Positions 38,908 through 54,071 of a stretch of 64,000 bases of DNA are shown here, piece by piece. The position numbers and the translations under genes were made by a program. How positions within the stretch are numbered: position 1 is the stretch's first letter; every line of letters begins with the position of its first letter. This stretch comes from Pseudomonadota bacterium. Its GTDB lineage: Bacteria; Pseudomonadota; Alphaproteobacteria; Rhizobiales; Amorphaceae. The stretch covers positions 91,289 to 155,288 of the forward strand of contig JBCCBM010000007.1 of the NCBI GenBank assembly GCA_039034015.1. The letters run 5' to 3'. The notes under the pieces were generated by a model. That model worked only from the letters and a program-made list of their open reading frames with translations. It was not told where the DNA came from and made no database searches.

Positions 38908-39043
38908 GGCCGCCCCCGTTTGCCTCTGGCTCTGCCCGATGCATAAAGGCGCGGGCCTTTCTTCGCCAGCCGCCGGCCGCGTTAAAGGCCCCGTTCAGGT
39001 GGGCTGTGGCAGGCAGGCGGCGCAACGGTTGGAGTTTTGCCGG

Positions 39044-41122
39044 GTGAGTAGACGCGCAGGCCGCCCCGCGGCGCCAAAACCCCTGCGCGCCGGGCCCCCG
39101 CCCAAGCGCCGCGCCCCCCAAAAACGGCGAAAGGCCGCGCCGAAAAAGCGCCGGTTTCGCCTCGCCCGATTCCTTTGGCGCAGCACCGTTGCGCTCACGC
39201 TGACGGGCCTTGTGGGCCTTACCGCCATCATCGCCTACTACGCCGCCACCATGCCCCCCATCGCCGAATGGGCCGTCCCCGCGCGCCCGCCCAACGTCGC
39301 GATTTTGTCCGAGCGGGGCCGCCTCATCGCCAACCGGGGCGACACGGGGGGCCGCGCCGTGACGCTCGCCGCGCTGCCCGATCATGTGCCCGAAGCGGTG
39401 ATCGCCATTGAGGATCGCCGGTTTTACAGCCACCCGGGCATCGACCCCATCGGCCTTGCGCGCGCGGTGATGGCCAACTTGCGCGCCGGCCGCCGTGTCC
39501 AAGGCGGGTCAACGTTGACGCAGCAGCTTGCGAAAAACCTCTTTCTCGACCCCTCGCGCACATTGGAGCGAAAAATCCAAGAGATGATCTTGGCCGTCTG
39601 GCTGGAAATCCAGTACGACAAGGGCGAGATCTTAGAAATGTACTTGAACCGCGTTTACCTCGGCGCGGGGGCAACGGGGGTGGACGGTGCCGCCCGCCGC
39701 TATTTTGATAAGCCCGCCGAAGATCTTTCCATCGCCGAGGCCGCCCTCATTGCGGGCCTTTTGAAGGCGCCCAGCGTCTATGCCCCCACCGTTGACGAGG
39801 CGCGCGCCAACGCCCGCGCCGCCACCGTCCTTGCCGCCATGCGCGAGGAAGGCTTCATCTCCGCCGGCGAACATCGCGCGGCGCGCGACACCCCCGCAAC
39901 GCTGAAAACCCCGGCGGTCGCAGCCTCAGGCGGCTATATTGCCGATTGGGTGGCTGATGTCCTGCCCGAACTCTCCGGCTCGGTGCGCGCCGATGTGATT
40001 GTGGAAACCTCCATCGACCTTGAACTTCAGGATCTTGCGGAGGAGGCGCTGGAGGCGCTGCTCGCCAAAGAGGGGGCGGAAAAGGGTGCTTCGCAGGGCG
40101 CTGTGGTGGTTTTGGATGCGGCGGGCGCCGTCAAAGCGCTGGTGGGCGGCCGGTCGTACGCGCAAAGCCAGTTCAACCGCGCCGTGGAGGCGGTGCGCCA
40201 GCCCGGCAGCGCGTTCAAGCCGTTCGTCTATCTCGCCGCGCTGGAAGACGGCTTGTCGGAGCAGACGATGCGCATCGACGGGCCAACCCGCATTGGCAAT
40301 TGGACCCCGCAAAACTACACCCGGCAGTATTATGGGCCAGTATCGCTGACGCGGGCACTTGCCCTGTCGCTCAACACCATTGCCGCGCAACTCACCAACG
40401 AGGTGGGGGCGCAGACGGTGGCACGGACGGCCGCGCGCATGGGCGTGCGCTCCCCGCTCAAGGCCAACGGGTCGCTCGCGCTTGGCACATCCGAGGTCAC
40501 GCTGCTTGAGCTTGCGACCGCCTACGTGCCTTTTTCCAATGGCGGGGTTGGGGTGGTGCCCCATGTGGTGCGCCGCATTCGCACGGTGGACGGCGCGCTC
40601 CTTTATGAGCGGCAGGTGGAGACGGCCGGCACCGTTGCCGCGCTTGACGATGTGGGCGCGATGAACCGCATGCTGACCACAGTGCTGGAGACCGGCACCG
40701 GCCAGCGCGCGCGCCTCAAGGGCTGGCAGGCCGCCGGGAAGACTGGCACCAGCCAAAATTGGCGGGACGCTTGGTTTGTGGGCTACACGGCGTTTTTCAC
40801 CGCCGGCGTGTGGCTTGGCAACGATGACAACGCGCCCACAAAGCGCGCCACCGGCGGCACACTGCCCGCGCTGTTGTGGACGCGGCTGATGGAAAAGGTG
40901 CACCGGGGTATGGTGCCTGCGGGCTTGCCGGGGGTTGAGCGTGCGCCGCGTGCGGTGGTCCCGGCCGACATTCCGCCTGACGATCCGTGGAATGCGCCGC
41001 GCACCGTGTCCGCCGGCCCCACGGTTTCTGCGCGTGATGGCGTGCCCGGCGCGCGCTCCCCCCGGGAGTGGACCGCCCCATCCGAGCGCCGCGGGTTTTT
41101 CGAGCGGCTCTTTGGGGGGTGA
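39044..41122 (+). CDS. class A penicillin-binding protein (transglycosylase/transpeptidase)
   Basis: GTG start with GGAG RBS, basic N-terminus plus [38 protein letters not shown]. Confidence 0.93.
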
Positions 41123-41185
41123 TGCTTGCCGCTTGGCGGGGGGTGGCGTACCCTTCAACCACATTTTCAATTAAGTGTGGTTCAA

Positions 41186-42133
41186 ATGAAAACACGAATT
41201 TGGTTTCAGAGATTTGCAATTCGCCTTGCTGTCATAGTGTCCGTATTGATGGCGGTTTGGTATTTTTTGCCGCTTACAATGGTCAGTGCTTCAAGTGTCA
41301 AAGGCTTTATTGTAGACATATTTTCATCGGAGAAAGGCGATGAATCGCTGTTCGACGCCAATATCCAAGCGGTGCGCGATAGTGCGCGGTTCAAAGCAAT
41401 GTCGAAGGAGGAGCAGCAAGAGTTCGACGACATGGTTGACGAGCTCGAGGAAGCCAAGGGTTCAGCGCCTGAGAAGAAGCTGTGGTCGGCCGAGCTCAGA
41501 AGCGTCGCAGAGATGCGCTTCGATTACCTTGATTTTTGCTTCAAGCGTAATCTCAAGCAGGTTTTTGATGAGGGGCGGCTTGATCGCCTACGTGCGTGCG
41601 GCCGCTACTATGTTGAGAACCTCGAGAACCCGAGTAAAATCTACTACATCCGCCGCGCGATCGACGATCAGCGGGACAACCTGAGGGCCGTCCTGCCCGA
41701 ATTGCGAGACCGACACACTTACAATGTTACATTCCCGGTCGCGTTGGCAATCGTGAGCTGGCTCCTCCTATTCACCTTCGCAAGACTGGCAATCGCAATC
41801 CCTTCTGCGATCGCAATTTTGTTGGTCTCAACAATCACACTGGGCGCCTTTGGCCGCGCCGAGCAGCTCCAAGCGGTCAACACCGCCGTGACACGCCTCC
41901 ATGTGTTGAAGGTGGAGGTGGACGGCGCCGTCATCCGCACCGTGGGGCGCACCTCAAAAGAGCCCGGTCTTTGGGCAAGCGACACGTCTCGAGAGAAAGT
42001 AACGTTCCCCAAAGAGCTCTCGGCAGAATATATGGAGCGGTTTCGCGAAATCATCGATGACCTTGCCACTGGCGCATCGGCAGGCATCAAAGGCCCGAAT
42101 TACGAGGGCGTCGTGCCTATAAAATTCCAGTAG
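41186..42133 (+). CDS. low-GC membrane protein with an N-terminal TM and a SLATT-like 2TM/helical C-terminal half
   Basis: 315-aa ORF with atypical composition. TM hairpin FPVALAIVSWLLLFTF/LAIAIPSAIAILLVSTITL followed by amphipathic helices. The family call is by eye. Confidence 0.75.
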   Translation: MKTRIWFQRFAIRLAVIVSVLMAVWYFLPLTMVSASSVKGFIVDIFSSEKGDESLFDANIQAVRDSARFKAMSKEEQQEFDDMVDELEEAKGSAPEKKLWSAELRSVAEMRFDYLDFCFKRNLKQVFDEGRLDRLRACGRYYVENLENPSKIYYIRRAIDDQRDNLRAVLPELRDRHTYNVTFPVALAIVSWLLLFTFARLAIAIPSAIAILLVSTITLGAFGRAEQLQAVNTAVTRLHVLKVEVDGAVIRTVGRTSKEPGLWASDTSREKVTFPKELSAEYMERFREIIDDLATGASAGIKGPNYEGVVPIKFQ

Positions 42134-42199
42134 CGGGCACGTCAGCCTCGGGCAGGGGGCTCGTCGTACTCTCGTCGGCGTCGACCATAGAGATGTGCG

Positions 42200-42718
42200 A
42201 TGCCGCCCTTAGAACGAGATCCACAACCGCCGGTGCGGCTCACCCCGCTCCTCACCAATCTGGCCCGCAGCGCCACCGCCGCGGGCTACATGGATGTTGC
42301 CGATTGGGCCAACTCCGAGCGCCAGGGCTATCGCTCGGACGTGCCGGTGTATCGCCGGGTGACGGGCGTCCCCATGGGGTTTAGCCCCATGAAGGGCTGG
42401 GTGCCGCTATTTGTGGAAAACAAAGCGCTCCTGCGCGAGGTGGGCGCCCACGGCCTGCGCCAGTCCATCGGCCACATCGAAAATGCCATCGCCAACTCCG
42501 ACAGCGGCAAGGCTTACGTCCACTACACGTCCGAAGAGATCGGCCTCATCAACATTGCCGCCGGCACGCGCTTTGCGCAAATGGCCTCCGCCATCGACAT
42601 TGGCGCGCTGCAGCGCATCGTCACCTCCGTCACCAGCCTTGCGCGCCAATGGTCCCACCAAATCCACGCGCGCACACCGCCGACCCCGCCAAAAGACCCG
42701 CCCACCATCGCCGCTTGA
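42200..42718 (+). CDS. stand-alone AbiTii-like domain protein
   Basis: LL..LA..A..AG...VADWANSERQGY..DVPVYRRVTG..MGFSPMKGWVP...RQSIGHIEN...IV..V......W fits the AbiTii pattern W..NEL.GY...VP.YR...G....FNP..GW.P...RQSI.EIE. Confidence 0.75.
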   Translation: MPPLERDPQPPVRLTPLLTNLARSATAAGYMDVADWANSERQGYRSDVPVYRRVTGVPMGFSPMKGWVPLFVENKALLREVGAHGLRQSIGHIENAIANSDSGKAYVHYTSEEIGLINIAAGTRFAQMASAIDIGALQRIVTSVTSLARQWSHQIHARTPPTPPKDPPTIAA

Positions 42719-42749
42719 CGCACCGCCGCCGCCGCGCCAAACGCGGGGC

Positions 42750-43115
42750 ATGACGATCGCCGACGTCACCTACCTCGTGCCGCGTTTTGAAGCGGGCGCC
42801 GCCTTCCTCACCGATGTGCTCGCCTACCGCGACCTCACCCGCGAGCCCGCCTGGCCCGTCTTTGCCCCCACACGCCACGCCGGCGCCACCCTGCGCCTTG
42901 CGGAGCCAAAGCCGGGCGAGGCGGCCGCCATCGGCCGGCAGGCGGGCTCACGCGTTTTCCTCTTTCTGCGCGTTGCGGACATGGCGGCCGAGTGCGCAGC
43001 CCTTGCCCGCGCGGGCCACCCCATCGAAGAACCCCTGCGACACGAACCTTATGGCGCCATCGTCGTGATCCGCGACCCGTTCGGCAACCGGTGGGACATT
43101 ATCGAACCCGCCTGA
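42750..43115 (+). CDS. VOC/glyoxalase-family protein
   Basis: GRQAGSRVFLFLRVAD, RHEPYG.IVVIRDPFGNRWDIIEP. Confidence 0.85.
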   Translation: MTIADVTYLVPRFEAGAAFLTDVLAYRDLTREPAWPVFAPTRHAGATLRLAEPKPGEAAAIGRQAGSRVFLFLRVADMAAECAALARAGHPIEEPLRHEPYGAIVVIRDPFGNRWDIIEPA

Positions 43116-43158
43116 CAGCGCTTGGCGCGGCGGCCAAGGGCGCATAACCTTCGATGCA

Positions 43159-43917
43159 ATGAATGCATCGCTCCCCCCCTTCACCCTCACCGGCCGCGCG
43201 TTGGTGACCGGCGCCAGCCGCGGCATCGGCCAGGCCCTCGCGCTCGCCGTTGCCGAGGCGGGCGCCGATCTCATCCTCACCGCCCGCTCGGCGGATGCGC
43301 TGCGGGGCACCGCCGCCGCCGTCACCGCGATGGGCCGCGCGTGCCACACCGTCCCCCTCGACCTTGCCGCCCCCGGCGCCGCCGAGCGCCTGTTTGCGGG
43401 CCTTTCGGCGGAGGGCCTGTCGCCCACACTCCTCATCAACAACGCCGGCACGGAGGACGTTGCCCCCTCAAAAGATGTCACCGAGGCGCAGTGGGACCGC
43501 ATTGTCGGCACCAACCTCAAGGCCGCCTTCTTTGTGGCGACTGCGTTTGCCCGCCAGACCGAGCGTGGCGCGATCCTCAACCTCGGCTCCCTCACCAGCG
43601 CCGTGGGGATCCCGACCGCGGTGCCCTACACTGCCTCAAAGTCAGGCATTTTGGGCATGACGCGGGCGCTTGCCGCCGAGTGGGCGCCCAACATCCGCGT
43701 CAACGCCCTTGGCCCCGGCTACTTTCGCACCGCCATGACCGAAGGCTTTTATGCCGATGCCGCCTGGGCGGACGCCATGCTCGGCAAAATCCCCATGGCC
43801 CGCTTTGGCGCCATGGAGGACCTCACGGGCCCAGCCGTCTTCCTCCTCTCCGATGCCGCCCGCTACATCACCGGCCAAATCCTTTATGTGGACGGTGGGA
43901 CGCTGGCCGCGCTCTGA
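43159..43917 (+). CDS. short-chain dehydrogenase/reductase
   Basis: ALVTGASRGIG, LINNAG, YTASK, RVNALGPG, YITGQILYVDGG. Confidence 0.93.
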   Translation: MNASLPPFTLTGRALVTGASRGIGQALALAVAEAGADLILTARSADALRGTAAAVTAMGRACHTVPLDLAAPGAAERLFAGLSAEGLSPTLLINNAGTEDVAPSKDVTEAQWDRIVGTNLKAAFFVATAFARQTERGAILNLGSLTSAVGIPTAVPYTASKSGILGMTRALAAEWAPNIRVNALGPGYFRTAMTEGFYADAAWADAMLGKIPMARFGAMEDLTGPAVFLLSDAARYITGQILYVDGGTLAAL

Positions 43918-43950
43918 ACGCTGGCGGCAAACTTGCATCTCAAAACAGCG

Positions 43951-45027
43951 ATGACTGCGCCCGATCCTTCCACCGCCATGGTCGCCCTTGAGGGCGTCAC
44001 AAAACGCTTTGGCGCCACAACCGCCGTGGATGGCGCCTCGTTCACCCTGGAGGCGGGCGCGTTTTTGACCATCGTCGGCCCGTCCGGCTGCGGGAAGACG
44101 ACGCTGCTCCGCATGATTGCAGGCTTCGAGCGGCCGACGGAGGGCCGCATCGCGCTGGCGGGTCAGGATGTCTCCAAAACGCCCGCCCATGCCCGCGCGG
44201 TGGGCATGGTGTTCCAAAAGCTGGCGCTCTTCCCGCACATGACGGCGGCGGACAACATTGCCTATCCGCTCCGCCGGCGCGGCACGCCAAAGGCCGAGAT
44301 TGCCGCGCGGGTGGATGAAATGTTGGCGCTGGTGCGCCTCCCCGGCCTTGGCGCCCGCCGCCCGCATGAGCTTTCGGGCGGGCAGCAGCAGCGGGTTGCG
44401 ATTGCGCGCGCGCTGTCGTTCCGCCCCAACCTTTTGCTGCTGGATGAGCCGCTGTCGGCGCTCGACAAAAAGCTGCGTGAGGACATGCAGCTGGAATTTC
44501 GCCGCATCCAGCAAGAGCTTGGCGTCACCACCATCAACGTCACCCACGACCAGCGGGAGGCGCTGGTGATGTCGGACCGCATCGTGGTGATGAACGAGGG
44601 CCGCATCCAACAAACCGCGACGCCGCAAACGCTTTATGGCGCACCCCAAAACCCATTTGTGGCGACCTTCATCGGCCTCACAACGATGTTCCCTGGAACG
44701 GTGCGCACGGGCGACCCGCTCACGGTTGATGCAGGCAGCCTCACCCTCCGCGCGCGGGGCGATGGGGCGCCGGGCGCTGCGGTCGACTGCGCGATCCGGG
44801 CCGAGCATGTGACGGTCTCCGAAACGCCGCTTACGGCGGACAACGCCCTTACCGGGACCGTCACCGATGCTGTCTTTGAGGGGGAGCGGTCGACGCTCAT
44901 TGTGGCCGTTTCAGGCCTTCCCCCGCTTTCCGCCTTCCACCACGGACCGCCGCCCGCGCCGGGCACGGCGGTCCACGTGGGGTTTGACGCCAAACATCTT
45001 CTCACCTTTGCGAAGGAGACACCATGA
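43951..45027 (+). CDS. ABC ATP-binding protein, PotA-like
   Basis: GPSGCGKTT, LSGGQQQRVAIARAL, LLLDEPLSALD, C-terminal TOBE. Confidence 0.95.
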   Translation: MTAPDPSTAMVALEGVTKRFGATTAVDGASFTLEAGAFLTIVGPSGCGKTTLLRMIAGFERPTEGRIALAGQDVSKTPAHARAVGMVFQKLALFPHMTAADNIAYPLRRRGTPKAEIAARVDEMLALVRLPGLGARRPHELSGGQQQRVAIARALSFRPNLLLLDEPLSALDKKLREDMQLEFRRIQQELGVTTINVTHDQREALVMSDRIVVMNEGRIQQTATPQTLYGAPQNPFVATFIGLTTMFPGTVRTGDPLTVDAGSLTLRARGDGAPGAAVDCAIRAEHVTVSETPLTADNALTGTVTDAVFEGERSTLIVAVSGLPPLSAFHHGPPPAPGTAVHVGFDAKHLLTFAKETP

Positions 45028-46103
45028 AGCTCACCCGCCGCACCCTGTTGCGCACCACGGCCGCTGGCGCGGGCGTTTTGGCCATGCCCGCCGTCCTGCG
45101 GGCGCAAGAGCCTGAAAAACCATCTGAAATCATTGTCCGCGCCTGGGGTGGCGCCTGGGGCGATGCGCTGAAAGCGGGCGTTGCGGACCCCTTCACCGCC
45201 GCGACCGGCATCCCCGTCCGGCTCGATTTCACCGAAGACAATGAGATCAAGCCAAAGATTTGGGCCGCCGTTGACCAAGGCCGCGTGCCGCCCATTCACG
45301 TCAACTGGGACACGTCCACCAACGCCACCATCTCCGCCCTGCGCGGCGCGTGCGTGGACCTTTCGGACCTTTCCAACCTTGAAGGTCTGTTGCCGCTCCA
45401 CAAGCCGGTGGGCCTTGAGGGCTACCCCCTCGTCAACACCTACGCCTACGTTTACGTCTGCGCGTACCGGCCCGAAGCCTTCCCCGATGGCGCGCCGGAC
45501 AGCTGGTCGGTGCTGATTGACGAAAAGTTCAAAGGCCGCATCGCGCTTTATGATGATGGCATCGGCTTCAACCCCATCGCCGTGATTGCCGGCGGCGGCA
45601 CCTTTGACGACATCCCCGGCAACATGGAGCCTGGGTACGAGTTCTATCGAAAGCTGAAGGCCAACGAGCCGCTGCTCGGCGAAGACCCCGACTTCACCTC
45701 ATGGTTCCAAAACGGCGAGATCGATGTGGCGTGCACCATCTCGGTGAACGCCCGCGCCGCGCGCACATCTGGCATCAACGTCGAGTGGACCGTGCCCAAA
45801 GAGGGCTGCAAGGTCGACACCGACGGCCTTTGGATCCCCAAAGGGCTGCCAGCCAACGAAGAGTATTGGGCGAAAGAATTCATCAACCTTGCCCTCACCG
45901 AAGACGTCCAAAAGAATTGGTGTGGCCAGCTGGGCCTCCCGCCGGTCTTCCCGGGCATTGAGCCCCCCGCCGATCTTGTGGGCGACCCGTCCTACCCGAC
46001 GTCGCCGGAAGATTTTGCCGCGCTCGTCTCGGTGCCGACACCCATCTTGGTGGAGAACCAGCCGTTGTGGTTCGCCAAATTCTCGGAAATTTTCCAGGGC
46101 TAA
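45024..46103 (+). CDS. ABC substrate-binding protein, PotD/PotF-like, Tat signal
   Basis: TRRTLL Tat motif, WGGAWGD, PDSWSVL.D.KFKGRIAL, VPKEG. ATGA overlap with the ATPase gene. Confidence 0.9.
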   Translation: MKLTRRTLLRTTAAGAGVLAMPAVLRAQEPEKPSEIIVRAWGGAWGDALKAGVADPFTAATGIPVRLDFTEDNEIKPKIWAAVDQGRVPPIHVNWDTSTNATISALRGACVDLSDLSNLEGLLPLHKPVGLEGYPLVNTYAYVYVCAYRPEAFPDGAPDSWSVLIDEKFKGRIALYDDGIGFNPIAVIAGGGTFDDIPGNMEPGYEFYRKLKANEPLLGEDPDFTSWFQNGEIDVACTISVNARAARTSGINVEWTVPKEGCKVDTDGLWIPKGLPANEEYWAKEFINLALTEDVQKNWCGQLGLPPVFPGIEPPADLVGDPSYPTSPEDFAALVSVPTPILVENQPLWFAKFSEIFQG

Positions 46104-46108
46104 TACGC

Positions 46109-46142
46109 GGGGGCCGGGCGGTGCTTGCGCCGCCCGGCCCCT
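46109..46142 (+). promoter_or_regulatory. intra-operon stem-loop after the SBP gene
   Basis: Perfect 13-bp stem gggggccgggcgg/ccgcccggccccc with an 8-nt loop and only a short U-tract. Typical of elements that stabilise the SBP part of ABC mRNAs. Confidence 0.7.
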
Positions 46143-46167
46143 TCAATTGACCGCGGGAGGCAGGGCC

Positions 46168-47022
46168 ATGAAACGCACCACCGGCTGGCTTCTCCTCACC
46201 CCTGCGCTGGCGCTGACGGGCATTCTCCTCATCGGCCTTGGGTGGATGCTGGAACTGTCGCTCCACACCCTCAACATTGCCACCTACCGCCTCAACCCCG
46301 AATACACGGTCGAGAATTACGCAACGATCCTGTCCCGCCCCGTGACGTGGACGGTGATGGCGCGCACCCTCGGCGGTGCCGCGCTGGTGACGCTCGCGAC
46401 CCTCATCCTCGCGATCCCCTACGCCTACTTGCTCGTGCGCACCCCGTCCGCCTTCACGCGAAAGGCGCTTTTGATCGCGCTCTTCCTGCCGTTTTTCATC
46501 GGCCAGGTGGTGCGCGCCTATGGCTGGCTCATCATCCTCGGGCGCGAGGGGCTCGCCAATGACATCATCACGGGGCTGGGGTTGCCACCCCAGGACCTCT
46601 TGTTCAACTACGGCACCGTGGTCTTCGGTCTTGTCCAATACATGCTCCCCTTCGCCGTCCTCTTGTTGGTGCCGGCGTTGTCGGCCATCCCGGAGGATGT
46701 GGAGCGTGCGTCTGAGGGGCTCGGCGCGGGCTGGCCGCAAACCTTTTGGTTCGTGCTCATCCCCATGGCGGGGCCAGGCTTGATTGGCGCGTCGGTGGTG
46801 GTCTTCACGCTGACGGTGACAGACTTTGCCATGCCCGAAATTTTGGGCGGCGGCACGCAAGACTTCTTTGCATCCCTGATTTACGACGCGTTCTTCCAGA
46901 TTTCCAACGCGGGTCTTGGGGCAGCGCTTGCCCTGTTGTTGACGGCGGTGGGCAGCCTCATCGTGGCGGTCATCTTCGCCCTCGCGGGGACGGGGACGCT
47001 CGGCTTCCGCAGCGCGCGCTGA
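46168..47022 (+). CDS. ABC permease, PotB-like
   Basis: GGAGG RBS, LFLPFFIGQVVRAYGW, EAA-like RASEGLGA, PEILGGG. Confidence 0.93.
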   Translation: MKRTTGWLLLTPALALTGILLIGLGWMLELSLHTLNIATYRLNPEYTVENYATILSRPVTWTVMARTLGGAALVTLATLILAIPYAYLLVRTPSAFTRKALLIALFLPFFIGQVVRAYGWLIILGREGLANDIITGLGLPPQDLLFNYGTVVFGLVQYMLPFAVLLLVPALSAIPEDVERASEGLGAGWPQTFWFVLIPMAGPGLIGASVVVFTLTVTDFAMPEILGGGTQDFFASLIYDAFFQISNAGLGAALALLLTAVGSLIVAVIFALAGTGTLGFRSAR

Positions 47023-47035
47023 GCCCGACTTGGCG

Positions 47036-48340
47036 TCACGCGGCCTGTGGGGGCGCGGATGACACATCCCGCCCCTGGTGGCCAAAGCGTTTGGCAACGG
47101 TTTTGATTGGCATTGGCCCGGCATCGGTCCAGGTGACGTCGCGCGCCGCGCGGGCCGGTCCTGGCCGGGCGATATAGTAGCCCTGGGCAAGGGCGACACC
47201 GGCGCCCTTCAGCGCTGCCAACTCGTCGGCGGTCTCCACCCCTTCGGCAATCAAGTCCGCCCCAACCCCTTGGGAAAACTGCACCATCGCCGTCATCAGC
47301 GAGTGGCGGGCCGGGTCATGGTCGAGCCCGCGCACCAGTGACATGTCGGCTTTGATGATGTCCGGCGACAGCTGGAGGGTGTGGTTAAGGCTGGCATAGC
47401 CACCGCCCACATCGTCCACCGCAAGGCGCAGGCCCGCCGCCCGCAGCGGATGGAGCGCCGCCTCAAGCCCGGCATAATCGCGCACCGCGCAATGCTCGGT
47501 GACCTCCAAAATGACGCGCTCCAGCGGGGCGCCGGCCAACACCTCGGCCAGGCGCTTGTCGGTGGCCAAGGCGGGCGACATGTTGAGGCTCACCGCCACC
47601 CCCCGGTCAAAGGGTGCAGCTTTCAGCGCAGTCTTGATGGCGTGAATTTCCAAGGTGTTGCGCATGCCGACCGTCTCCGCGTCCGACAGCCACACCGGCG
47701 GTGCGCGATACTCGCCATCGTCAAAGCGGGACAGGGCCTCCATGGCGAACATGCGCCCTGTGGCAATGTTGACGATGGGTTGGAACACCGGCCGCACCCG
47801 GCCCCCGGTCAACACCCGCTCAATGCGCAGCGCCCGTTCGCGGTGGTTGCGCTCGGCCAAAAGCTCCCGCCGCAGCTCCACCGCCGCCACATCCGCAAAG
47901 GCCTCCATCACCCGTTGATCGCGTGGGGAGAGGGTGTGGTTCGGATCGTTGGAGTAGCAACAAAACATGCCGTAGGCCGTGCCGTTCTCATCCAGCAACG
48001 GCACCGAAATGTGGGCGCCGACGTCCAGCGCGTGGACCGCGTCAAACGTGGTGGCAAACGGGTCCTTTCGCGCATCGGGCAGGATGGGCGCCAGGTTGCC
48101 GGACGCGGTGTGATAGCAAAGCGTGCAGTCCTTCGGCATTTTGAGGCCGACGGGGCCAAGCTCGCAGCCCTCCTGCGCGTCGACCGCCAACAGCTCCCAC
48201 GTGTCACCCGAAAGGTCGGAAATATAGGCGACATCCATCCCAAGGTGTTCGCGCACGGTGCGCAGCGCACGGTTGACGGTCGTGCGCGGCGCCGCGTCCT
48301 CCATGGTCAGAAGGCCAGACAGGTTCGACCGTTTTGTCAT
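47036..48340 (-). CDS. GAF-EAL c-di-GMP phosphodiesterase
   Basis: GGAGG RBS. GAF (VREHLGMDVAYI, YGMFCC) plus EAL (FQPIV, EALSRF, LNMSP, LEVTE, DDVGGGYAS, IKAD, AEGVET, QGYYIARP). Confidence 0.93.
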   Translation of the reverse strand: MTKRSNLSGLLTMEDAAPRTTVNRALRTVREHLGMDVAYISDLSGDTWELLAVDAQEGCELGPVGLKMPKDCTLCYHTASGNLAPILPDARKDPFATTFDAVHALDVGAHISVPLLDENGTAYGMFCCYSNDPNHTLSPRDQRVMEAFADVAAVELRRELLAERNHRERALRIERVLTGGRVRPVFQPIVNIATGRMFAMEALSRFDDGEYRAPPVWLSDAETVGMRNTLEIHAIKTALKAAPFDRGVAVSLNMSPALATDKRLAEVLAGAPLERVILEVTEHCAVRDYAGLEAALHPLRAAGLRLAVDDVGGGYASLNHTLQLSPDIIKADMSLVRGLDHDPARHSLMTAMVQFSQGVGADLIAEGVETADELAALKGAGVALAQGYYIARPGPARAARDVTWTDAGPMPIKTVAKRFGHQGRDVSSAPPQAA

Positions 48341-48454
48341 GATGCCCTCCGCCGCGTGGTCGCTCGGGCTAGGAGTTAGATCAGTCAACTTGTCGCAAGC
48401 TGGCGCGATGGGTTCCATGCCGTTACCGTTGAGCCGTCGTTGCACGAGGCGCGC

Positions 48455-49243
48455 ATGTCGAAATCGATGACCCTATGGGCCCTCACCAGCTTCTCCCTCC
48501 TCATCTTGTCCTTGCCGACGGTTGTGGTGGTGGGCGCCTCGTTCACCGCGGGTGAGATCATCGCCTTCCCGCCGGACGGGTTTTCACTCCGCTGGTATTC
48601 TGAGATGTGGGCGCTGCCGTCCTTCAAGGCCGCCCTTTGGCGCACGCTTTATGTGAGCCTTATCTGCACCATCATCGCGATCCCCGCGGGGACGCTGGCC
48701 GCCATCGCGCTCGCCAAGGCGCGGTTTCGCTTCCGCACCACCATCCAGGTTTACCTGTTGCTCCCCTTCACAATCCCGCTGGTGGTCTCCGGCATTGCGA
48801 TGATGCTGATCTTTGGCGAGATCCGCATTCTGGGCAACTTGTGGCCCGTCGGCCTTGCGCTGTGCGTGATCAACCTTCCCTTCATGATCTGGGCGGTGGC
48901 CGCCAGCGTGAACGCCCTTGACCCTGAACTCGAAAACGCGGCCCAAAGCTGCGGCGCGCGGCCGCTTGCCGCCTTCTTCACCGTCACGCTGCCGGCGGTG
49001 GCGCCGGGGGTGATCACGGGCGCGCTGTTGATGTTCATCCTCGCATTCAACGAGTTTTTGGTGTCGCTCTTCCTCACCGACAGCCGCACCGTGACGCTGC
49101 CGGTTCAGATCTTCAACTCCATCCGCAGCGTCATCACGCCCGACCTTGCGGCGGTGTCCGTGCTTTACATTGCCATCGCGCTGGTGACGGTGATCGTGCT
49201 TGACCGCCTCGTCGGCCTCGACATTTTTCTGAAATCGAAGTGA
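48455..49243 (+). CDS. ABC permease, PotC-like
   Basis: FPPDGFSLRWY, ELENAAQSCGARP, FILAFNEF, TLPVQIF. Confidence 0.93.
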   Translation: MSKSMTLWALTSFSLLILSLPTVVVVGASFTAGEIIAFPPDGFSLRWYSEMWALPSFKAALWRTLYVSLICTIIAIPAGTLAAIALAKARFRFRTTIQVYLLLPFTIPLVVSGIAMMLIFGEIRILGNLWPVGLALCVINLPFMIWAVAASVNALDPELENAAQSCGARPLAAFFTVTLPAVAPGVITGALLMFILAFNEFLVSLFLTDSRTVTLPVQIFNSIRSVITPDLAAVSVLYIAIALVTVIVLDRLVGLDIFLKSK

Positions 49244-49250
49244 GCCTTCC

Positions 49251-50582
49251 GTGAGCCCAACGCCCCCCATCACCGTCCACGTCTTGAAGGATCTGTCGCC
49301 CGACCAACGCGAAAAACTGCTGGAACGGGCGGAGGTGGGCCTTGACCATTTTATCGACAAGGTCGGCCCCATCATCGAGGCGGTGGCGACCGAGGGGGAC
49401 GCCGCCCTCGCCCGCTTTGCCCAAGAGTTTGACAAGTCGCCGGTGGCCGCCAACGCCATTGCCGCCACCCCGGCCGACTTTGACGCCGCCTTCGCCACCG
49501 TCGAGCCAGAAATGATCAAGGTGCTCGAGATGGCGGCCGACAATGTGCGCCGCTTTCACGAAGCGCAGATGCCGCAAGAGTTTTGGCTCAAAGAAATGTC
49601 CCCCGGCGTTTACTGCGGCGAGCGGGCAAGCCCGATCCCCTCTGTCGCCTGCTATGTGCCGCGCGGGAAGGGCTCGTTCCCGTCCGTCGTCAACATGACG
49701 GCGATCCCCGCTGTCGTCGCAGGTGTCCCCCAGCCGATCATCGTCACCCCGCCCGGCCCTGACGGCAAAGTGGACGCCGCAACGCTGGTTGCCGCTCGCA
49801 TTGCCGGCGTCGAAGAGGTTTTTAAGTGCGGCGGCGCCCAGGCCGTTGCGGCCGTTGCCTATGGCACCGAGACCGTGCCCCGCTGCGCCAAGATCGTCGG
49901 CCCCGGCTCCCCCTGGGTGGTGGCCGCCAAGCGCATGCTCTCCGGCCGGATCGACCCCGGCCCCCCCGCCGGCCCCTCCGAGGCGATCGTGCTCGCCGAT
50001 GAGACCGCGAACCCAAAGGTTGCCGCCCTCGACCTTCTCAACGAGAGCGAACACGGGCCCGACAGTTCCGCCTATCTCGTCACCAATTCCCGCGCGGTCG
50101 CCGAGGGCGTCCTTGCCGCCATCCCCGGCTACTGGGCGCACATGGGTGACGAGCGCACCGGTTTTAGCCACACCGTGCTCACCGGCGCGCGCGGCGGCAT
50201 CGTCATCTGCGACACGATGGACCAGGCGATCGCTTTCACCAACGATTACGCCCCCGAACACCTCCAGGTGCACGCCAAAAGCCCGTTCGATTACCTCGGC
50301 GCCCTAAAACACGCCGGCGAGATCCTGCTTGGCGAGCATTCCGCCATTTGCCTCGGCAACTACGCGCTTGGCCCCAACGCTGTGTTGCCCACCAACGGCG
50401 CGGCGACCACGCGCTCCCCCCTCGGCGTGCACGACTATCTGAAGCTCACGTCCGTCGCCCACGTCACCAAGCGCGGCTACGATCGCCTGGCGCCCAGCGT
50501 CCACCGCTTTGCCCAGTATGAAGGGTTTGACGCCCATGCCAACGCCGTCTCCCCGCTGCGGGACAAAGCGTTTTCGGAGTGA
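49251..50582 (+). CDS. histidinol dehydrogenase-like protein (divergent HisD paralog)
   Basis: [35 protein letters not shown]. The LLNESEH and [13 protein letters not shown] motifs differ from canonical HisD. Confidence 0.9.
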
Positions 50583-50992
50583 TTTCAGAGCTTTGCGAAC
50601 CCGACCCGGCGGCGATCAACGCAATCGCCGCCCTCTGGCGCGCCTGCGACCTCACCCGCCCCTGGAACGACCCCCACGCCGACATTTTTCGCGCCATCGC
50701 CCACCCCACGGCCGCGCTCCTCATCGCGCGCGACCCGGAGATTGTCGGCACAGTCATGGTGGGTGACGACGGCCACCGCGGCGCGATCTATTATCTCGCC
50801 GTCGCTCCCACCCACCAGCGAACAGGCCTCGGCCGAGATTTGCTGAGCGCCGCCGAGGATCACCTCAAAACCAACGGCTGCCCAAAACTAAACCTGGTAA
50901 TCCGCGCCGAAAACACGGCGGTTGCCGCCTTCTACAAGGCGTGCGGCTACGCCCAAGAGGACCGCATGATGATGGCCAAGAGGCTCATGTGA
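50579..50992 (+). CDS. GNAT acetyltransferase (YpeA-like)
   Basis: LTRPWNDP..DI, GTVMVGDDGHRG.IYYLAV.P..QR.GLG, CPKLNL. GTGA overlap with the HisD-like gene. Confidence 0.9.
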   Translation: MISELCEPDPAAINAIAALWRACDLTRPWNDPHADIFRAIAHPTAALLIARDPEIVGTVMVGDDGHRGAIYYLAVAPTHQRTGLGRDLLSAAEDHLKTNGCPKLNLVIRAENTAVAAFYKACGYAQEDRMMMAKRLM

Positions 50993-51020
50993 GCCCCCTT
51001 TTGCAGCAACCGCCGCTGTA

Positions 51021-51171
51021 GTCTGATCGCCGGAGCCGTCGTCGCTTCCCCTGATCAGCGCCGCCGTCAGATGGTGTCAAGGGGCCCGAAGGGCCAGCGA
51101 AGCTGCTTGCCCTTGATGCCATCTGGCGGGGGTGCCAGGGGCAAAAGCGACGTCGGCTCCGGCGATCAGAC
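51021..51171. repeat. 151-bp nested palindromic element (REP/MITE-like)
   Basis: Outer arms 51021-51047 / 51145-51171 match 26/27. Inner arms 51068-51083 / 51110-51125 match 14/16, the other two being G-U. Confidence 0.85.
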
Positions 51172-51225
51172 GGCCCTGATTGCTGGTGAGTTTGAGCCCG
51201 CCGGAGGCCCGCGCGTCCCACAGCT

Positions 51226-51975
51226 TCAGGCGGCGGCCAGCTTCTCCATCACCTCATCACTCATCTCATAGTTGGCAAAGACGTTCTGCACATCGTCATC
51301 GTCTTCCAACACATCGATGAGCTTCATGAGCGTCGCGCCCTTGTCCTCATCGATGGGCGTCCCGTTCTGCGGCCGCCACACAATTCGAACCGCGGCGGGT
51401 TCGCCAAGCGCCGCAGTCAGCGCCCCGGACACCTCCGCCACATCCGTAAAGCCGCACGTGATGACGTGGGTCTCCTCATCGGACACCACATCATCAGCCC
51501 CTCCTTCGATCGCCGCTTCCATCACCGCATCGGCGTCCGCAGCATCGGCGGGGTACTCAATTTCTCCGACACGGTCGAACATGAAGGAGACGGAGCCCGT
51601 TTCGCCGAGCGCCCCGCCGTGTTTGGAGAAGGCAGCGCGCACAACGCCGGCGGTGCGGTTGCGGTTGTCGGTGAGGGCCTCCACGAGGACGGCGACGCCA
51701 CCGGGACCATACCCCTCGTAGCGCACCTCTTCGTAGTTGGCGTCATCGTCGCCGGCGGCCTTTTTGATGGCGCGCTCGATGTTGTCTTTGGGCACCGATT
51801 GCGCCTTTGCGGCGTTTATAGCGAGGCGCAGGCGCGGGTTCATGTCGGGGTCGGGCGTGCCCATTTTGGCCGCCACCGTGATCTCGCGCGACAGTTTTGA
51901 GAACAGCTTTGACCGCTTGGCGTCCTGCGCGCCCTTGCGATGCATGATGTTCTTGAATTTGGAATGCCCGGCCAT
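51226..51975 (-). CDS. yebC: YebC/PmpR-family protein
   Basis: [56 protein letters not shown]. Confidence 0.96.
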
Positions 51976-52044
51976 CACCCTCTCCTCTTGCCATCGAGAT
52001 AAAGGTTGGCCGGCGCGAAGGGAAGCGCCGCGGGTGATCGCAGC

Positions 52045-52305
52045 TCAGTGCAGCGTCACATAACCCCCGCCCAGGGCGTCCGGCGCGGTGAGGCAGGCGA
52101 ACACGGCAAGCCAGAAGCCGCCCTCCTGGTCGTCCCCGTCGCGCTGGGCTTCCACGGCGCGGGTCATGGCCTCAAGGGCCGCGCTGGTGCCGTAAAAGAC
52201 GTCAAGATCGGCGGCTGCCTCTTGAACGGTCACGTCGCGGCGCCAGTCCACGGCATCGAAGAAATTTTGCATCTCACGGGCGAAATTAGCCAGTTCACTT
52301 GCCAT
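52045..52305 (-). CDS. small acidic helical protein (86 aa)
   Basis: Protein-like helical sequence ending A.EAQRDGDQEGGFWLAVF. Host-like codon usage, fills the yebC-luxR gap. Confidence 0.65.
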   Translation of the reverse strand: MASELANFAREMQNFFDAVDWRRDVTVQEAAADLDVFYGTSAALEAMTRAVEAQRDGDDQEGGFWLAVFACLTAPDALGGGYVTLH

Positions 52306-52377
52306 CACACTGTTCCGTCAATTCGACCTGTGGTTAAGTCACTGCGACTATAGATCGAACGATCGGGCTGTGGCACC

Positions 52378-52393
52378 TCCCCCATATGGGGGA
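52378..52393. promoter_or_regulatory. perfect 16-bp palindrome, candidate operator
   Basis: TCCCCCATATGGGGGA between the small ORF and luxR. Confidence 0.55.
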
Positions 52394-52427
52394 ACCCATG
52401 GGCGAGATTGGCGACTGGGGACACACC

Positions 52428-53216
52428 ATGACACCGCGCGATGATGCCGGTGCCGTGCCGCTTTTGCGCGCGGCCCTCGACGAGCCGAAAACCGGCGACA
52501 AAGTTGTCAGAAGCGCGCTCGACGCGGTCATCGCGGCCGATGGCATGGAGCGCGCCGTGGTCACGGTGCGCGATGCCTTCCAGCTGAAACACGTGAGTTA
52601 TCTCGCCGCTCGCTACGGCGCCTCGCCCGAGCGCGACCCTTACGTGCGCTCCACCTATCCGGCGCTCTGGATGGCGCGCTACCTGATGAAGCGCTACTGG
52701 CGTGTGGACCCCATCATCACCGAGGGGTTTCGCCGGGCCGCCCCGTTCGACTGGGCCACCATCGACCGCTCAACGCCGCGCATCGCAGAGTTTTTCGACG
52801 ATGCGGCCCGCTTCAAGGTGGGCCAAAACGGCATGTGCGTGCCGCTCACCGATCGGTCCGGCCGGCGGGGCATCCTGTCACTCTCCAGCGACCTGGAGGG
52901 GAACGCGTGGACGGACTACGCCGCCGCGTTTTTGAAGGATTTCATTGAGGTGGGCGCCGCGCTTCACGCCCGCGGCCTGAAAGAGGTGTTTGGCGACGCA
53001 AAAGCACCGCCCCGCCTGTCGCCGCGCGAAAAAGAGGTTCTGCGGTGGACGGCGGAGGGCAAAGAGGTGCCCGACATTGCCATCATCACCAGCCTCTCGG
53101 AGCACACAGTGCGCACCTACATCAAATCCGCGCGCTTAAAACTCGACTGTGGGACGAAGGCGCAGGCGGCCGTGAAGGCCGAGCGCCTCAACCTCCTCAA
53201 CGAGGACGAGGCGTAG
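52428..53216 (+). CDS. LuxR-family AHL receptor
   Basis: Autoinducer domain YP..W...Y....Y...DP...PFDW, HTH LSPREKEVLRWTAEGK...IA....LSEHTV. Confidence 0.95.
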   Translation: MTPRDDAGAVPLLRAALDEPKTGDKVVRSALDAVIAADGMERAVVTVRDAFQLKHVSYLAARYGASPERDPYVRSTYPALWMARYLMKRYWRVDPIITEGFRRAAPFDWATIDRSTPRIAEFFDDAARFKVGQNGMCVPLTDRSGRRGILSLSSDLEGNAWTDYAAAFLKDFIEVGAALHARGLKEVFGDAKAPPRLSPREKEVLRWTAEGKEVPDIAIITSLSEHTVRTYIKSARLKLDCGTKAQAAVKAERLNLLNEDEA

Positions 53217-53280
53217 CAAAACACCATCGCGGCCGACGCGCGGGCAAAGTGCGCGGCAAGGATTGCATCGGGCCCCAACA

Positions 53281-53922
53281 TCACGCCGCCTCTTTGAGCG
53301 CGCCCGGCAGAGGCGGCGACACCAAAAGCGACCCAGAGACTCCAAGGCGCGCCCGTGCGTCGGCCAAGATCTCTTCCGTGCAGGCCGTCATCCCAAGGTG
53401 GACGGGGACGGAGAAGGCCTCGGACGTGCCCAGAATGTCGAAGTGGACGCCCATCACGCGCCACATGCGCCGGCGCAGGGGGTCAAAGTTGGCCAGATAC
53501 GCGTCAACGCCGGCCGAGAGGCCAAATTCCAGGGCCGCCACGTGGAGGCCGCGCAGGATGGTGAGCCGTTCCTTGTCGCGGCCGTGGGCGCGGATCTTCT
53601 CATCATCAATGCAAAGGCGCGTCACCTCCCACACGAAGGGCGAGGCAAAGTCGATGTCCGGCACGGTCTCGCCGAACACATCGGCCAGAAGGGTTGGCCC
53701 ATTGGTGGGCATCAGACGGCCGCAGGCAAGGAGTTCGGTGCCCGTCGCATTCGTGTGCATCACATAGACAGGGTTGTGCGCGTCGTAAACATCGCGCTCA
53801 TGGTCGCCGACGGTCTCTACCCAGTTGAGTTCGTCGCCAAACACTTTTTGGCGCAGGCGAAACATTTGATCGGAGAGTTCCGGATAGCGATGAAGTTCAC
53901 TGCCATGGATGAGGAAGTACAT
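53281..53922 (-). CDS. LuxI-family acyl-homoserine-lactone synthase
   Basis: MFRLRQKVF...LNW, ERDVYD, GRLMPT.GPTLL, WEVTRLC. Confidence 0.95.
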   Translation of the reverse strand: MYFLIHGSELHRYPELSDQMFRLRQKVFGDELNWVETVGDHERDVYDAHNPVYVMHTNATGTELLACGRLMPTNGPTLLADVFGETVPDIDFASPFVWEVTRLCIDDEKIRAHGRDKERLTILRGLHVAALEFGLSAGVDAYLANFDPLRRRMWRVMGVHFDILGTSEAFSVPVHLGMTACTEEILADARARLGVSGSLLVSPPLPGALKEAA

Positions 53923-53927
53923 GGGGG

Positions 53928-53957
53928 ATCACCTTCGATATTTGTTATGAAGGTGAT
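53928..53957 (-). promoter_or_regulatory. hairpin sequestering the luxI ribosome-binding site
   Basis: The mRNA reads AUCACCUUC-N12-GAAGGUGAU-CCCCC-AUG, a perfect 9-bp stem covering the SD. Confidence 0.7.
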
Positions 53958-54071
53958 ACTAGGGCGCACTTACATGGCGAGGGTTGTGCAAAATCTTGGC
54001 GTTAATGTCCCCGTGCGCCCGCCCGCTGTGGGCGAAGGGCGCGGCTTTATCCCCGCCGTCCCCCGGGGATA

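What the first reader, a model, noticed from the sequence alone, without database searches (positions are those of the whole stretch)
43159..50992. Uncharacterised catabolic cluster built around an active-site-rewired HisD paralog
Seen: SDR, PotA-, PotD-, PotB- and PotC-like ABC genes, a HisD-like gene and a GNAT, all co-oriented, with ATGA/GTGA overlaps. Known: E. coli HisD uses Gln259, His262, Asp360 and His419 for Zn, and Glu326/His327/His367 at the substrate. Here SQAEH becomes NESEH (Q to E) and GDYASGTNHVLPT becomes [13 protein letters not shown] (D360 to N, H367 to A), while EH and the last His are kept. It also lacks the AGPTE/GDK signature I associate with HpsN. Inference: an NAD-dependent alcohol-to-acid oxidase for a different imported substrate, working with the SDR and a coupled acetyltransferase. 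No other his gene is nearby.
Basis: partly seen in the sequence, partly recalled or inferred. Interest (0 to 1): 0.72.

Follow-up and report, generated by a model that had tools for sequence, protein, structure and literature searches.

The report
Swapped-zinc-ligand histidinol dehydrogenase in importer cluster
The "rewired" HisD-like gene is real, but it belongs to a large undescribed branch of the family that probably still makes histidine. It is the only such enzyme left in this bacterium, and it sits in a conserved uptake-plus-reductase cluster whose imported compound is still unknown.

Summary
The genes and substitutions are real (Q259E, D360N, H367A; Glu326/His327, His262, Glu414 and His419 kept).

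The substitutions do not mark a new substrate.
- E259/N360 defines a monophyletic clade inside HisD proper, far from HpsN.
- In many near-complete alphaproteobacterial genomes this clade supplies the only HisD-family gene. In several it lies among hisG, hisB, hisH and hisA.
- Only three non-active-site positions separate those sole-copy enzymes from the importer-linked subclade that holds the window protein.

This genome (Acuticoccus by GTDB genus) has hisG, hisC, hisB, hisH, hisA, hisF, hisE and hisI. Its canonical hisD was cleanly deleted from its syntenic site. Its other two family members are HpsN and an HpsN-like paralog.

So the gene is most likely the working histidinol dehydrogenase.

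The SDR + PotABCD-like importer + HisD module recurs in Rhodovulum, Paroceanicella, S. meliloti pSymA (hisD2, SMa0398) and, with another transporter type, on Klebsiella and Pantoea plasmids. Three copies carry a HutC-type repressor. This points to a histidine-yielding salvage module (inferred).

In passing: a kinase-like neighbour of this HisD clade is present in 8 of 9 genomes that lack IGPD.

The parts
43159..43917 (+). Classical SDR oxidoreductase, the conserved partner of the HisD-type gene. Its Gly-motif TGASRGIG and the Arg after strand beta-2 suggest NADP(H) preference (my inference from the sequence).
   Evidence: PF13561/PF00106. Below every NCBIfam equivalog cut-off. Orthologs at 51-65% identity stand next to the HisD-type gene in S. 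meliloti, Klebsiella, Paroceanicella, G131, G060 and G212. Best PDB match is 4j2h, an S. meliloti SDR of unknown function.
43933..45027 (+). ABC importer ATPase (PotA/PhnT-like, with a TOBE domain).
   Evidence: PF00005 + PF08402. TIGR01187 potA subfamily 356.1 bits against a cut-off of 355.6. The start codon is uncertain (TTG at 43933).
45024..46103 (+). Periplasmic solute-binding protein of the PotD/PotF superfamily; ligand unknown.
   Evidence: PF13416. PotD equivalog only 34 bits against a cut-off of 582. Distant PDB relatives bind spermidine, putrescine, GABA, agropine and mannopine. 83-90% identical in the genus and 68% identical to S. meliloti SMa0392. ATGA overlap with the ATPase gene.
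46168..47022 (+). ABC permease 1 (PotB-like).
   Evidence: PF00528. Intact to its last residues when compared with relatives.
47036..48343 (-). GAF-EAL gene (putative c-di-GMP phosphodiesterase). It is an insertion, specific to this genome, between the two permease genes, and is not part of the conserved module. The start is at 48341, 48418 or 48445.
   Evidence: PF01590 + PF00563. Relatives have the permease genes 15-100 bp apart. The nearest homologs in the genus are only 41-46% identical and lie elsewhere. There are no flanking IS-like repeats.
48455..49243 (+). ABC permease 2 (PotC-like). The start is the ATG at 48455 or the TTG at 48440.
   Evidence: PF00528. 81-86% identical in the genus. 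Sequence read.
49251..50582 (+). HisD-family NAD/Zn four-electron dehydrogenase of the E259/N360 clade (S. meliloti HisD2 type). Most likely the genome's only histidinol dehydrogenase.
   Evidence: PF00815 and TIGR00069 above cut-off. Motifs. It is one of only three family genes in the genome, and the other two are HpsN-type. Clade placement. No active-site difference from sole-copy clade members.
50579..50992 (+). YpeA-like GNAT acetyltransferase. It is translationally coupled (GTGA overlap) and is a genus-specific addition; role unknown.
   Evidence: NF002959 158 bits against a cut-off of 124. PDB YpeA 2pdo, 104 bits. Present after the HisD-type gene in G011, G013, G012 and G003 but not outside the genus.

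Best explanation
Gene 49251-50582 encodes a genuine L-histidinol dehydrogenase (EC 1.1.1.23) of a distinct, undescribed branch of the HisD family.

In this branch the neutral and anionic zinc ligands are swapped: Gln259 becomes Glu and Asp360 becomes Asn. The catalytic Glu326/His327 pair, the zinc ligands His262 and His419', and the imidazole-binding Glu414' are all kept.

In this Acuticoccus genome the canonical hisD has been deleted. This enzyme therefore has to carry out the last two steps of histidine biosynthesis.

The gene lies in a module that is older and more widespread than that replacement: an SDR, a PotABCD-like ABC importer and the HisD-type gene. Elsewhere this module coexists with a canonical hisD, is often plasmid-borne, and in three cases is controlled by a HutC-type (urocanate-sensing) repressor.

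My reading of the module is that it imports histidinol, or a closely related imidazole alcohol, and converts it to L-histidine for biosynthesis or for Hut catabolism. The SDR would act on a neighbouring carbonyl or alcohol step.

Shown here: the gene content, residues, phylogeny, synteny, the deletion, the sole-copy status and the completeness of the pathway. Inferred: histidinol turnover, zinc binding through Glu/Asn, the importer's ligand, and the roles of the SDR and the GNAT.
For: 1. Only three PF00815 genes exist in the 96.75%-complete genome. The window gene is one. C23 is a true HpsN (683 bits to PDB 8wwe). C12 is HpsN-like.
2. The canonical hisD is cleanly missing. About 1.3 kb present in relative G004 is replaced by about 25 bp between conserved flanking genes on own contig C37.
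3. The rest of the pathway is intact: hisB, hisH, hisA, hisF, hisE and hisI, and hisG and hisC above NCBIfam cut-offs.
4. In the genus, 10 genomes lack the canonical hisD; at least nine of them carry this gene (the tenth, G001, is fragmentary), and no genome lacks a HisD-family gene. G011 (98% complete, 7 contigs) has it as its only family member. The 9 of these that are over half complete keep IGPD.
5. In a class-wide sample, 21 further genomes without a canonical HisD carry E259/N360 homologs at 43-68% identity. In 14 it is the sole copy. Several lie beside hisG (G058, G416) or among hisB, hisH and hisA (G076, G401, G304, G224).
6. The E/N clade is monophyletic (SH-aLRT 100). It groups with HisD, not HpsN, and the window protein is nested inside it.
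7. Only positions 284, 298 and 353 separate the importer-linked members from the sole-copy members.
8. In the M. truncatula structure the histidinol oxygen contacts the main-chain carbonyl of the residue equivalent to His367, so a side-chain change there need not matter. The imidazole binds zinc and Glu414', which are kept (PMC5585171).
9. HutC equivalogs (250-258 bits against a cut-off of 220) sit inside three independent copies of the module. A histidinol-phosphate transaminase homolog lies beside the S. meliloti copy. That cluster falls in expression together with hutUGH and ntrBC in a tolC mutant (PMC2912261).
10. This genome has hutU.
Against: - No enzyme of this clade has been assayed, so histidinol turnover is inferred from genomes alone.
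- In HpsN, the mutation D352A (equivalent to D360) abolishes activity (PMC11382572). The Asn/Glu arrangement therefore needs direct proof of zinc binding.
- Where the module coexists with a canonical hisD (Rhodovulum, Paroceanicella, S. meliloti, four Acuticoccus genomes), a second histidinol dehydrogenase needs a reason to exist. A different preferred substrate remains possible.
- Histidinol is not a known abundant environmental nutrient.
- The SDR has no obvious role in histidinol oxidation.
- This cluster has no regulator of its own, and it is interrupted by an antisense GAF-EAL gene, so co-expression of its two halves is unproven.
- Most sole-copy genomes are uncultured MAGs, so their prototrophy is assumed, not known.
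Confidence: 0.64

Rival explanations
1. The HisD2-type enzyme's native substrate is another imported 2-amino (or 2-hydroxy) primary alcohol. The SDR and importer belong to that catabolic route. A promiscuous histidinol activity was enough to let Acuticoccus lose its canonical hisD.
For: The module coexists with a canonical hisD in Rhodovulum, Paroceanicella, S. meliloti and four Acuticoccus genomes. It is plasmid-borne and horizontally spread. It always travels with an SDR, and often with a Zn-ADH and a small-molecule kinase, none of which plain histidinol oxidation needs. The NAD loop is also altered, from GPGNA[YF] to GPGSPW.
Against: No active-site position separates importer-linked members from sole-copy members. 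GPGSPW and A367 also occur in the hisG-adjacent sole-copy genes of G058 and G416. The HutC-type regulators and the HisC homolog point to histidine chemistry. Ten same-genus genomes, each standing for a species (one genome is held per species), rely on it alone.
Confidence: 0.2
2. The HisD-type gene is simply the housekeeping hisD of this lineage. The neighbouring SDR and ABC genes are functionally unrelated, for example a polyamine-like importer, and are linked only by history.
For: The binding protein and ATPase resemble polyamine and aminoethylphosphonate systems. In G003 the transporter is lost while SDR-HisD-GNAT remains. In this genome the operon is split by an inserted gene.
Against: The SDR + importer + HisD order is kept across Hyphomicrobiales, Rhodobacterales and S. 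meliloti plasmids. The HisD + SDR linkage survives a swap to an NMT1-type transporter in Klebsiella and Pantoea. Linkage that persistent across horizontal transfer implies a shared function.
Confidence: 0.1
3. The organism is a histidine auxotroph, or obtains HisD activity from its HpsN-type paralogs, and the window gene has nothing to do with histidinol.
For: The canonical hisD is deleted. Two HpsN-type paralogs exist in this genome. Acuticoccus isolates are usually grown on rich marine media (my knowledge).
Against: All other his genes are intact here. IGPD is kept in the hisD-less Acuticoccus genomes that are over half complete, which argues for selection on a working pathway. G011 has no HpsN-type paralog at all.
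Confidence: 0.05

Closest known systems
Canonical L-histidinol dehydrogenase HisD (E. coli 1K75/1KAE; Brucella 4G07; Medicago truncatula 5VLB)
   Same: Same family (PF00815, TIGR00069) and length. Shares AGPSE, the catalytic Glu326/His327 pair, zinc ligands His262 and His419', and the imidazole-binding Glu414'. About 36% identical to E. coli HisD, with phmmer E-values of 1e-74 to 1e-83 to solved HisDs.
   Different: The zinc ligands are Glu259/Asn360 instead of Gln259/Asp360, and position 367 is Ala instead of His. The clade-wide signature is G133R, A136G, Y138F, D231G, D263G, A266S, A347E, F349L and L416F, and the NAD loop reads GPGSPW. No member of this clade has been solved or assayed.
S. 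meliloti pSymA hisD2 (SMa0398) cluster, SMa0387-SMa0402 and the two genes downstream
   Same: 57% identical, with the same E259/N360/A367 and [11 protein letters not shown] motifs. The neighbours are orthologous: SDR at 58% identity, ATPase at 53% and binding protein at 68%.
   Different: The S. meliloti cluster also has hisC3, a Zn-ADH, a HutC-type repressor, a kinase-like protein and an FMN alpha-hydroxy-acid oxidase, and it coexists with a chromosomal hisD. It is known only from transcript lists, not from function (PMC2912261, PMC8844928, PMC12542648).
HpsN, (R)-DHPS 3-dehydrogenase / sulfopropanediol 3-dehydrogenase (PDB 8V35, 8WWE)
   Same: Same superfamily and the same four-electron alcohol-to-acid chemistry with zinc and NAD. 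HpsN is a precedent for HisD paralogs placed in importer-linked catabolic clusters.
   Different: HpsN keeps Gln/Asp/His and has AGPT[DE], GDK and the sulfonate-binding GRY[A/S]H loop. The window protein has none of these and branches with HisD, not HpsN. A true HpsN is encoded elsewhere in this genome, on C23.
PotABCD / PotFGHI polyamine ABC importers
   Same: Same four-component architecture and protein families.
   Different: The binding protein is far below the PotD equivalog cut-off (34 bits against 582). The ligand is unknown, and the genomic partner is a HisD-type dehydrogenase rather than polyamine genes.

Membership tests
HisD family (PF00815 / TIGR00069) | Full-length match to the family models above the curated cut-offs | tested here: met
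   PF00815 462.3 bits (cut-off 27). TIGR00069 447 bits (cut-off 243.8).
Canonical histidinol dehydrogenase | Zinc ligands Gln259, His262, Asp360 and His419' (E. coli numbering) | tested here: not met
   His262 and His419 are kept. Position 259 is Glu and position 360 is Asn, invariant across the clade (39/39 and 120/120).
Canonical histidinol dehydrogenase | Catalytic Glu326/His327 and imidazole-binding Glu414' | tested here: met
   APEHL and EGFDAH are conserved. Residue roles are taken from PMC11382572 and PMC5585171.
Histidinol dehydrogenase by role (EC 1.1.1.23) | Supplies the last steps of an otherwise complete histidine pathway | tested here: met
   It is the only non-HpsN family member. 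The canonical hisD is deleted. hisG, hisC, hisB, hisH, hisA, hisF, hisE and hisI are present. Clade members lie in his operons elsewhere. This evidence is genomic only.
Histidinol dehydrogenase by role (EC 1.1.1.23) | Measured NAD-dependent oxidation of L-histidinol to L-histidine, or complementation of a hisD mutant | not testable with these tools
HpsN (DHPS 3-dehydrogenase) | The GRY[A/S]H loop with a sulfonate-binding and zinc-binding His, the GDK motif and AGPT[DE] | tested here: not met
   The window protein has [12 protein letters not shown] and AGPSE. The genome's C23 and C12 paralogs carry the GDK and AGPT[DE] marks (C23 also the GRYAH loop). The tree separates the clades at SH-aLRT 100.
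PotABCD polyamine importer | Binding protein matches the PotD/PotF equivalog models | tested here: not met
   PotD NF007048 scores 34 bits against a cut-off of 582. Only the ATPase just reaches the potA subfamily cut-off (356.1 against 355.6).
HutC-controlled histidine-utilisation regulon | A HutC equivalog regulator in or beside the cluster | tested here: not met
   There is no regulator gene in the window cluster, and the best hit to S. meliloti HutC in this genome is 31% identical on another contig. The feature is met in the S. meliloti, Paroceanicella and G131 copies.

The most novel reading that the evidence does not exclude
The E259/N360 branch is a mechanistically distinct 'type II' histidinol dehydrogenase, and it anchors an alternative lower half of histidine metabolism.

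In its importer-linked form (SDR, with or without Zn-ADH, kinase-like protein, HisC homolog and HutC) it would funnel imported imidazole C3 compounds into histidine. Candidates are histidinol, imidazole acetol or propanediol, and imidazole glycerol or lactate. This form has displaced the canonical hisD in Acuticoccus.

In other lineages its kinase-like neighbour would replace imidazoleglycerol-phosphate dehydratase, perhaps by ATP-driven phosphorylation followed by elimination.
Probability: 0.2. Interest if true: 0.8.

Novelty: new variant of a known kind. Interest (0 to 1): 0.55.

Why it matters
HisD is a textbook enzyme and a drug and herbicide target (Brucella, Mycobacterium, plants). Its zinc site, Gln/His/Asp/His, is treated as invariant. 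A large natural clade with Glu/His/Asn/His that appears to be the only HisD in many Alphaproteobacteria would show that the metal site tolerates a charge swap. It would also give enzymologists a natural double mutant to study.

For annotation, the result cuts both ways. The automatic name 'histidinol dehydrogenase' is probably right here, even though residue-level reasoning suggests otherwise. Yet the SDR + importer module around it (S. meliloti hisD2 cluster) still has no known substrate.

The genus-level replacement of canonical hisD by this paralog is a clean example of a paralog displacing an essential gene.

The side observation may matter more. If a kinase-like protein stands in for IGPD in at least five alphaproteobacterial families, a step of histidine biosynthesis thought to be universal has an unrecognised alternative.

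Tried and rejected
- Cysteinolate or DHPS oxidation. Rejected: those substrates use HpsN-type enzymes (PMC12814064, PMC11382572), the window protein lacks the HpsN motifs, and the genome has a true HpsN elsewhere.
- Canonical hisD hidden in an assembly gap. Rejected: its syntenic site is assembled and empty.
- HpsN-type paralogs acting as HisD. Unlikely: G011 has none.
- Opine-type catabolism, suggested by distant similarity of the binding protein to agropine and mannopine binders. No supporting genes were found.
- A mobile-element origin for the GAF-EAL insertion. No flanking repeats were found.
- A leader or riboswitch. Rfam found nothing credible in 38000-54000.
- The promoter and terminator scan was uninformative, at or below shuffle expectation.
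- 'ORF332' at the hisB position in G224 looked like an IGPD replacement. It is an antisense artefact of hslV.
- Papers: E. coli HisD (PNAS 2002) and the S. meliloti transportome (PNAS 2006) are not held. Searches for hisD2/SMa0398 function, for E/N-type HisD and for a non-homologous IGPD found nothing relevant.
- Earlier notes of this scan on HisD paralogs mostly concern HpsN-like clades and did not bear on this case.


Full report
**What is in the sequence**

Between 43159 and 50992 the plus strand carries these genes:
- a classical SDR (43159-43917);
- an ABC ATPase with a TOBE domain (43933-45027);
- a PotD/PotF-superfamily binding protein (45024-46103);
- two permeases (46168-47022 and 48440/48455-49243);
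- a HisD-family gene (49251-50582; PF00815 462 bits; TIGR00069 447 bits against a cut-off of 243.8);
- a YpeA-like GNAT (50579-50992).

The ATGA and GTGA overlaps are real. In five same-genus genomes those genes are 15-100 bp apart. The nearest homologs of the GAF-EAL gene in relatives are only 41-46% identical and lie elsewhere. It has no IS-like flanks. It is therefore an insertion specific to this genome.

**The substitutions**

Aligned to E. coli HisD (taken from NC_000913), the protein reads [28 protein letters not shown] and EGFDAHAN. That corresponds to Q259E, D360N and H367A, with H262, E326, H327, E414 and H419 kept. All 120 nearest homologs (66-87% identity) carry the same three changes. 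These come from Acuticoccus, Granulosicoccus, Rhodovulum, Inquilinus, Paroceanicella, Kiloniellaceae and Competibacteraceae.

**The genome has no other hisD**

The assembly (43 contigs, 96.75% complete) has three PF00815 genes. The C23 copy scores 683 bits to the solved (R)-DHPS dehydrogenase 8wwe and is a true HpsN. The C12 copy is HpsN-like. Both have AGPT[DE]/GDK, and C23 also the GRYAH loop that the HpsN structure paper gives as diagnostic.

A canonical hisD is not hidden in a gap. In relative G004 it lies between two conserved genes. In this genome those genes are contiguous on contig C37, with about 25 bp where about 1.3 kb of hisD should be.

The rest of the pathway is present: hisB, hisH, hisA, hisF, hisE and hisI, plus hisG and hisC above NCBIfam cut-offs.

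**The pattern in the genus**

The contig length of G011 equals that of Acuticoccus sp. MNP-M23, so the GTDB genus is Acuticoccus (Hyphomicrobiales). Among 17 genomes:
- three have only a canonical HisD;
- four have both types;
- ten have no canonical HisD, and at least nine of them carry the variant (the tenth, G001, is fragmentary);
- none lacks a HisD-family gene.

G011 (98% complete, 7 contigs) has the variant as its only PF00815 gene. The 9 of the 10 canonical-less genomes that are over half complete keep IGPD. The cluster is syntenic in the genus, next to PBP1A and an AbiTii-like gene.

**E259/N360 is a clade of likely real histidinol dehydrogenases**

I sampled 400 alphaproteobacterial genomes of at least 90% completeness. 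About 35 lacked a canonical-scoring HisD. Searching those with the window protein gave 21 homologs at 43-68% identity. All carry E259, N360 and (all but L073) the YxPRGKG loop. Position 367 is Ala, Cys, Asn or even His.

In 14 near-complete genomes this is the only family member. Several lie among his genes:
- beside hisG-hisB-hisH-hisF in G058 and G416 (A367 type);
- between hisB and hisA in G076;
- between hisH and hisB in G401 and G304;
- next to hisH-hisA-hisF in G224.

In a maximum-likelihood tree the E/N clade is monophyletic (SH-aLRT 100) and groups with HisD proper, far from HpsN. The his-operon sole copies are basal, and the window protein is nested deep inside.

Only three positions (E. 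coli 284, 298, 353), none in the active site, separate the importer-linked members from the sole-copy members. The clade-wide signature against canonical HisD is G133R, A136G, Y138F, D231G, Q259E, D263G, A266S, A347E, F349L, D360N and L416F.

Structural literature fits this. The histidinol oxygen contacts the main-chain carbonyl of the His367 equivalent, and the imidazole binds zinc and Glu414' (PMC5585171). Gln259 and Asp360 are both oxygen ligands, so the Glu/Asn pair keeps the donor atoms and the net charge. That last point is my inference. D352A kills HpsN (PMC11382572), so zinc binding by Asn360 still needs proof.

**The module around the gene**

SDR + ATPase + binding protein + two permeases + HisD-type gene recurs in several places:
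- Rhodovulum sp. P5, on the chromosome;
- Paroceanicella profunda, on a plasmid with a GntR gene;
- genome G131, with the gene order rearranged;
- S. meliloti pSymA, as SMa0387-0402 and the two genes downstream, where the gene is called hisD2.

Klebsiella and Pantoea plasmids keep the HisD-type gene, the SDR, a Zn-ADH and a 430-aa protein, but use an NMT1-type transporter.

All of these proteins carry the E/N/A motifs, and their SDRs are 51-65% identical to the window SDR. The GntR regulators of S. meliloti, Paroceanicella and G131 pass the HutC equivalog model (250-258 bits against a cut-off of 220). S. meliloti adds a histidinol-phosphate-transaminase homolog and an FMN alpha-hydroxy-acid oxidase. 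Its cluster drops in expression together with hutUGH and ntrBC in a tolC mutant (PMC2912261).

Rhodovulum and Paroceanicella also have a canonical hisD. The module is therefore an accessory, histidine-linked unit in most hosts. I read it as a salvage or catabolic route that yields histidine from an imported imidazole alcohol, with histidinol the simplest candidate. The ligand and the SDR's step are unproven. The GNAT is confined to Acuticoccus.

The cluster is real, conserved and uncharacterised. The argument 'rewired residues, therefore a different substrate' does not hold. PGAP's name 'histidinol dehydrogenase' is probably right. A different preferred substrate with promiscuous histidinol activity remains a live rival; I put it at about 0.2.

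**Side finding**

The 406-431-aa protein next to many E/N HisD genes has no Pfam family. Its features are:
- a confident model (pLDDT 93);
- a small-molecule-kinase fold, with matches to MTR kinase, APH, fructosamine-3-kinase, homoserine kinase II and the lanthipeptide dehydratase kinase LxmK;
- invariant Lys65, HGDAHNAN and Asp276.

I tested HisD-bearing genomes of at least 90% completeness for both genes. The counts are:

| | kinase-like present | kinase-like absent |
|---|---|---|
| IGPD absent | 8 | 1 |
| IGPD present | 7 | 47 |

Fisher's exact p is 1.3e-5, uncorrected for phylogeny. The eight IGPD-negative, kinase-positive genomes span five GTDB families. The seven of them tested for HisA/HisF all keep both.

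Within one genus, G076 has hisB-IMPase(HisN)-HisD and no kinase. G224 has a HAD hydrolase next to HisD, plus the kinase, and no IGPD.

This suggests a non-homologous replacement of IGPD, or an alternative lower pathway. This genome has IGPD and lacks the kinase, so the point does not bear on the window itself.

**Limits**

- All functional claims rest on comparative genomics.
- Two key papers were not held.
- The caps on genome and homolog searches were reached.

Noticed in passing
L045:2931-4226 (Paroceanicella); L050:12248-13468 (S. meliloti); L051:4034-5329 (Klebsiella); L100:8048-9466 (G224); not in the window: A 406-431-aa protein with no Pfam family sits next to many E259/N360 HisD genes. 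It has a small-molecule-kinase fold with intact catalytic residues. It is present in 8 of 9 HisD-bearing alphaproteobacterial genomes that lack IGPD (hisB), against 7 of 54 that have IGPD. In one genus, kinase + HAD (G224) takes the place of hisB + IMPase (G076). It is a candidate non-homologous replacement of IGPD, or a marker of an alternative lower histidine pathway.
   Followed up: partly
window 47036-48445 (minus strand): A GAF-EAL gene (putative c-di-GMP phosphodiesterase) is inserted between the two permease genes of the importer operon, only in this genome. There are no IS-like repeats. It leaves a divergent gap of 36-113 bp before permease 2. It may give the permease 2, HisD and GNAT genes their own promoter, or it may polarise them.
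   Followed up: partly
own genome contig C37:11229-11255 (outside the window): A clean deletion scar of the canonical hisD. The flanking genes are conserved with relative G004, and about 1.3 kb is replaced by about 25 bp.
   Followed up: yes
own genome C23:10428-11651 and C12:92054-93277 (outside the window): C23 carries a true HpsN (683 bits to PDB 8wwe) and C12 a second HpsN-like paralog, so the organism probably uses DHPS or cysteinolate-type sulfonates. Their neighbourhoods were not examined.
   Followed up: no
L043 (G003:C3) and L037 (G010:C71): G003 keeps SDR-HisD-GNAT but has lost the four transporter genes. G010 has an unidentified stretch of about 1.2 kb between the two permease genes, at the same place as the GAF-EAL insertion here, and it is not homologous to that gene.
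   Followed up: no
window 42200-42718, 42747-43115, 52386-53216 and 53281-53922: An AbiTii-like gene and a glyoxalase-fold gene lie directly upstream of the cluster; the AbiTii-like gene is syntenic in G011, G013 and G010. A LuxR/LuxI (acyl-homoserine-lactone synthase) pair lies about 1.4 kb downstream.
   Followed up: no
L054/L085 (G060) and L055 (G212): In GTDB genus g46 the only HisD is an E/N-type gene directly preceded by the SDR ortholog and facing the kinase-like gene, with no transporter. G060 has a second E/N copy. So the SDR-HisD pairing persists even where the enzyme must be the housekeeping one.
   Followed up: partly
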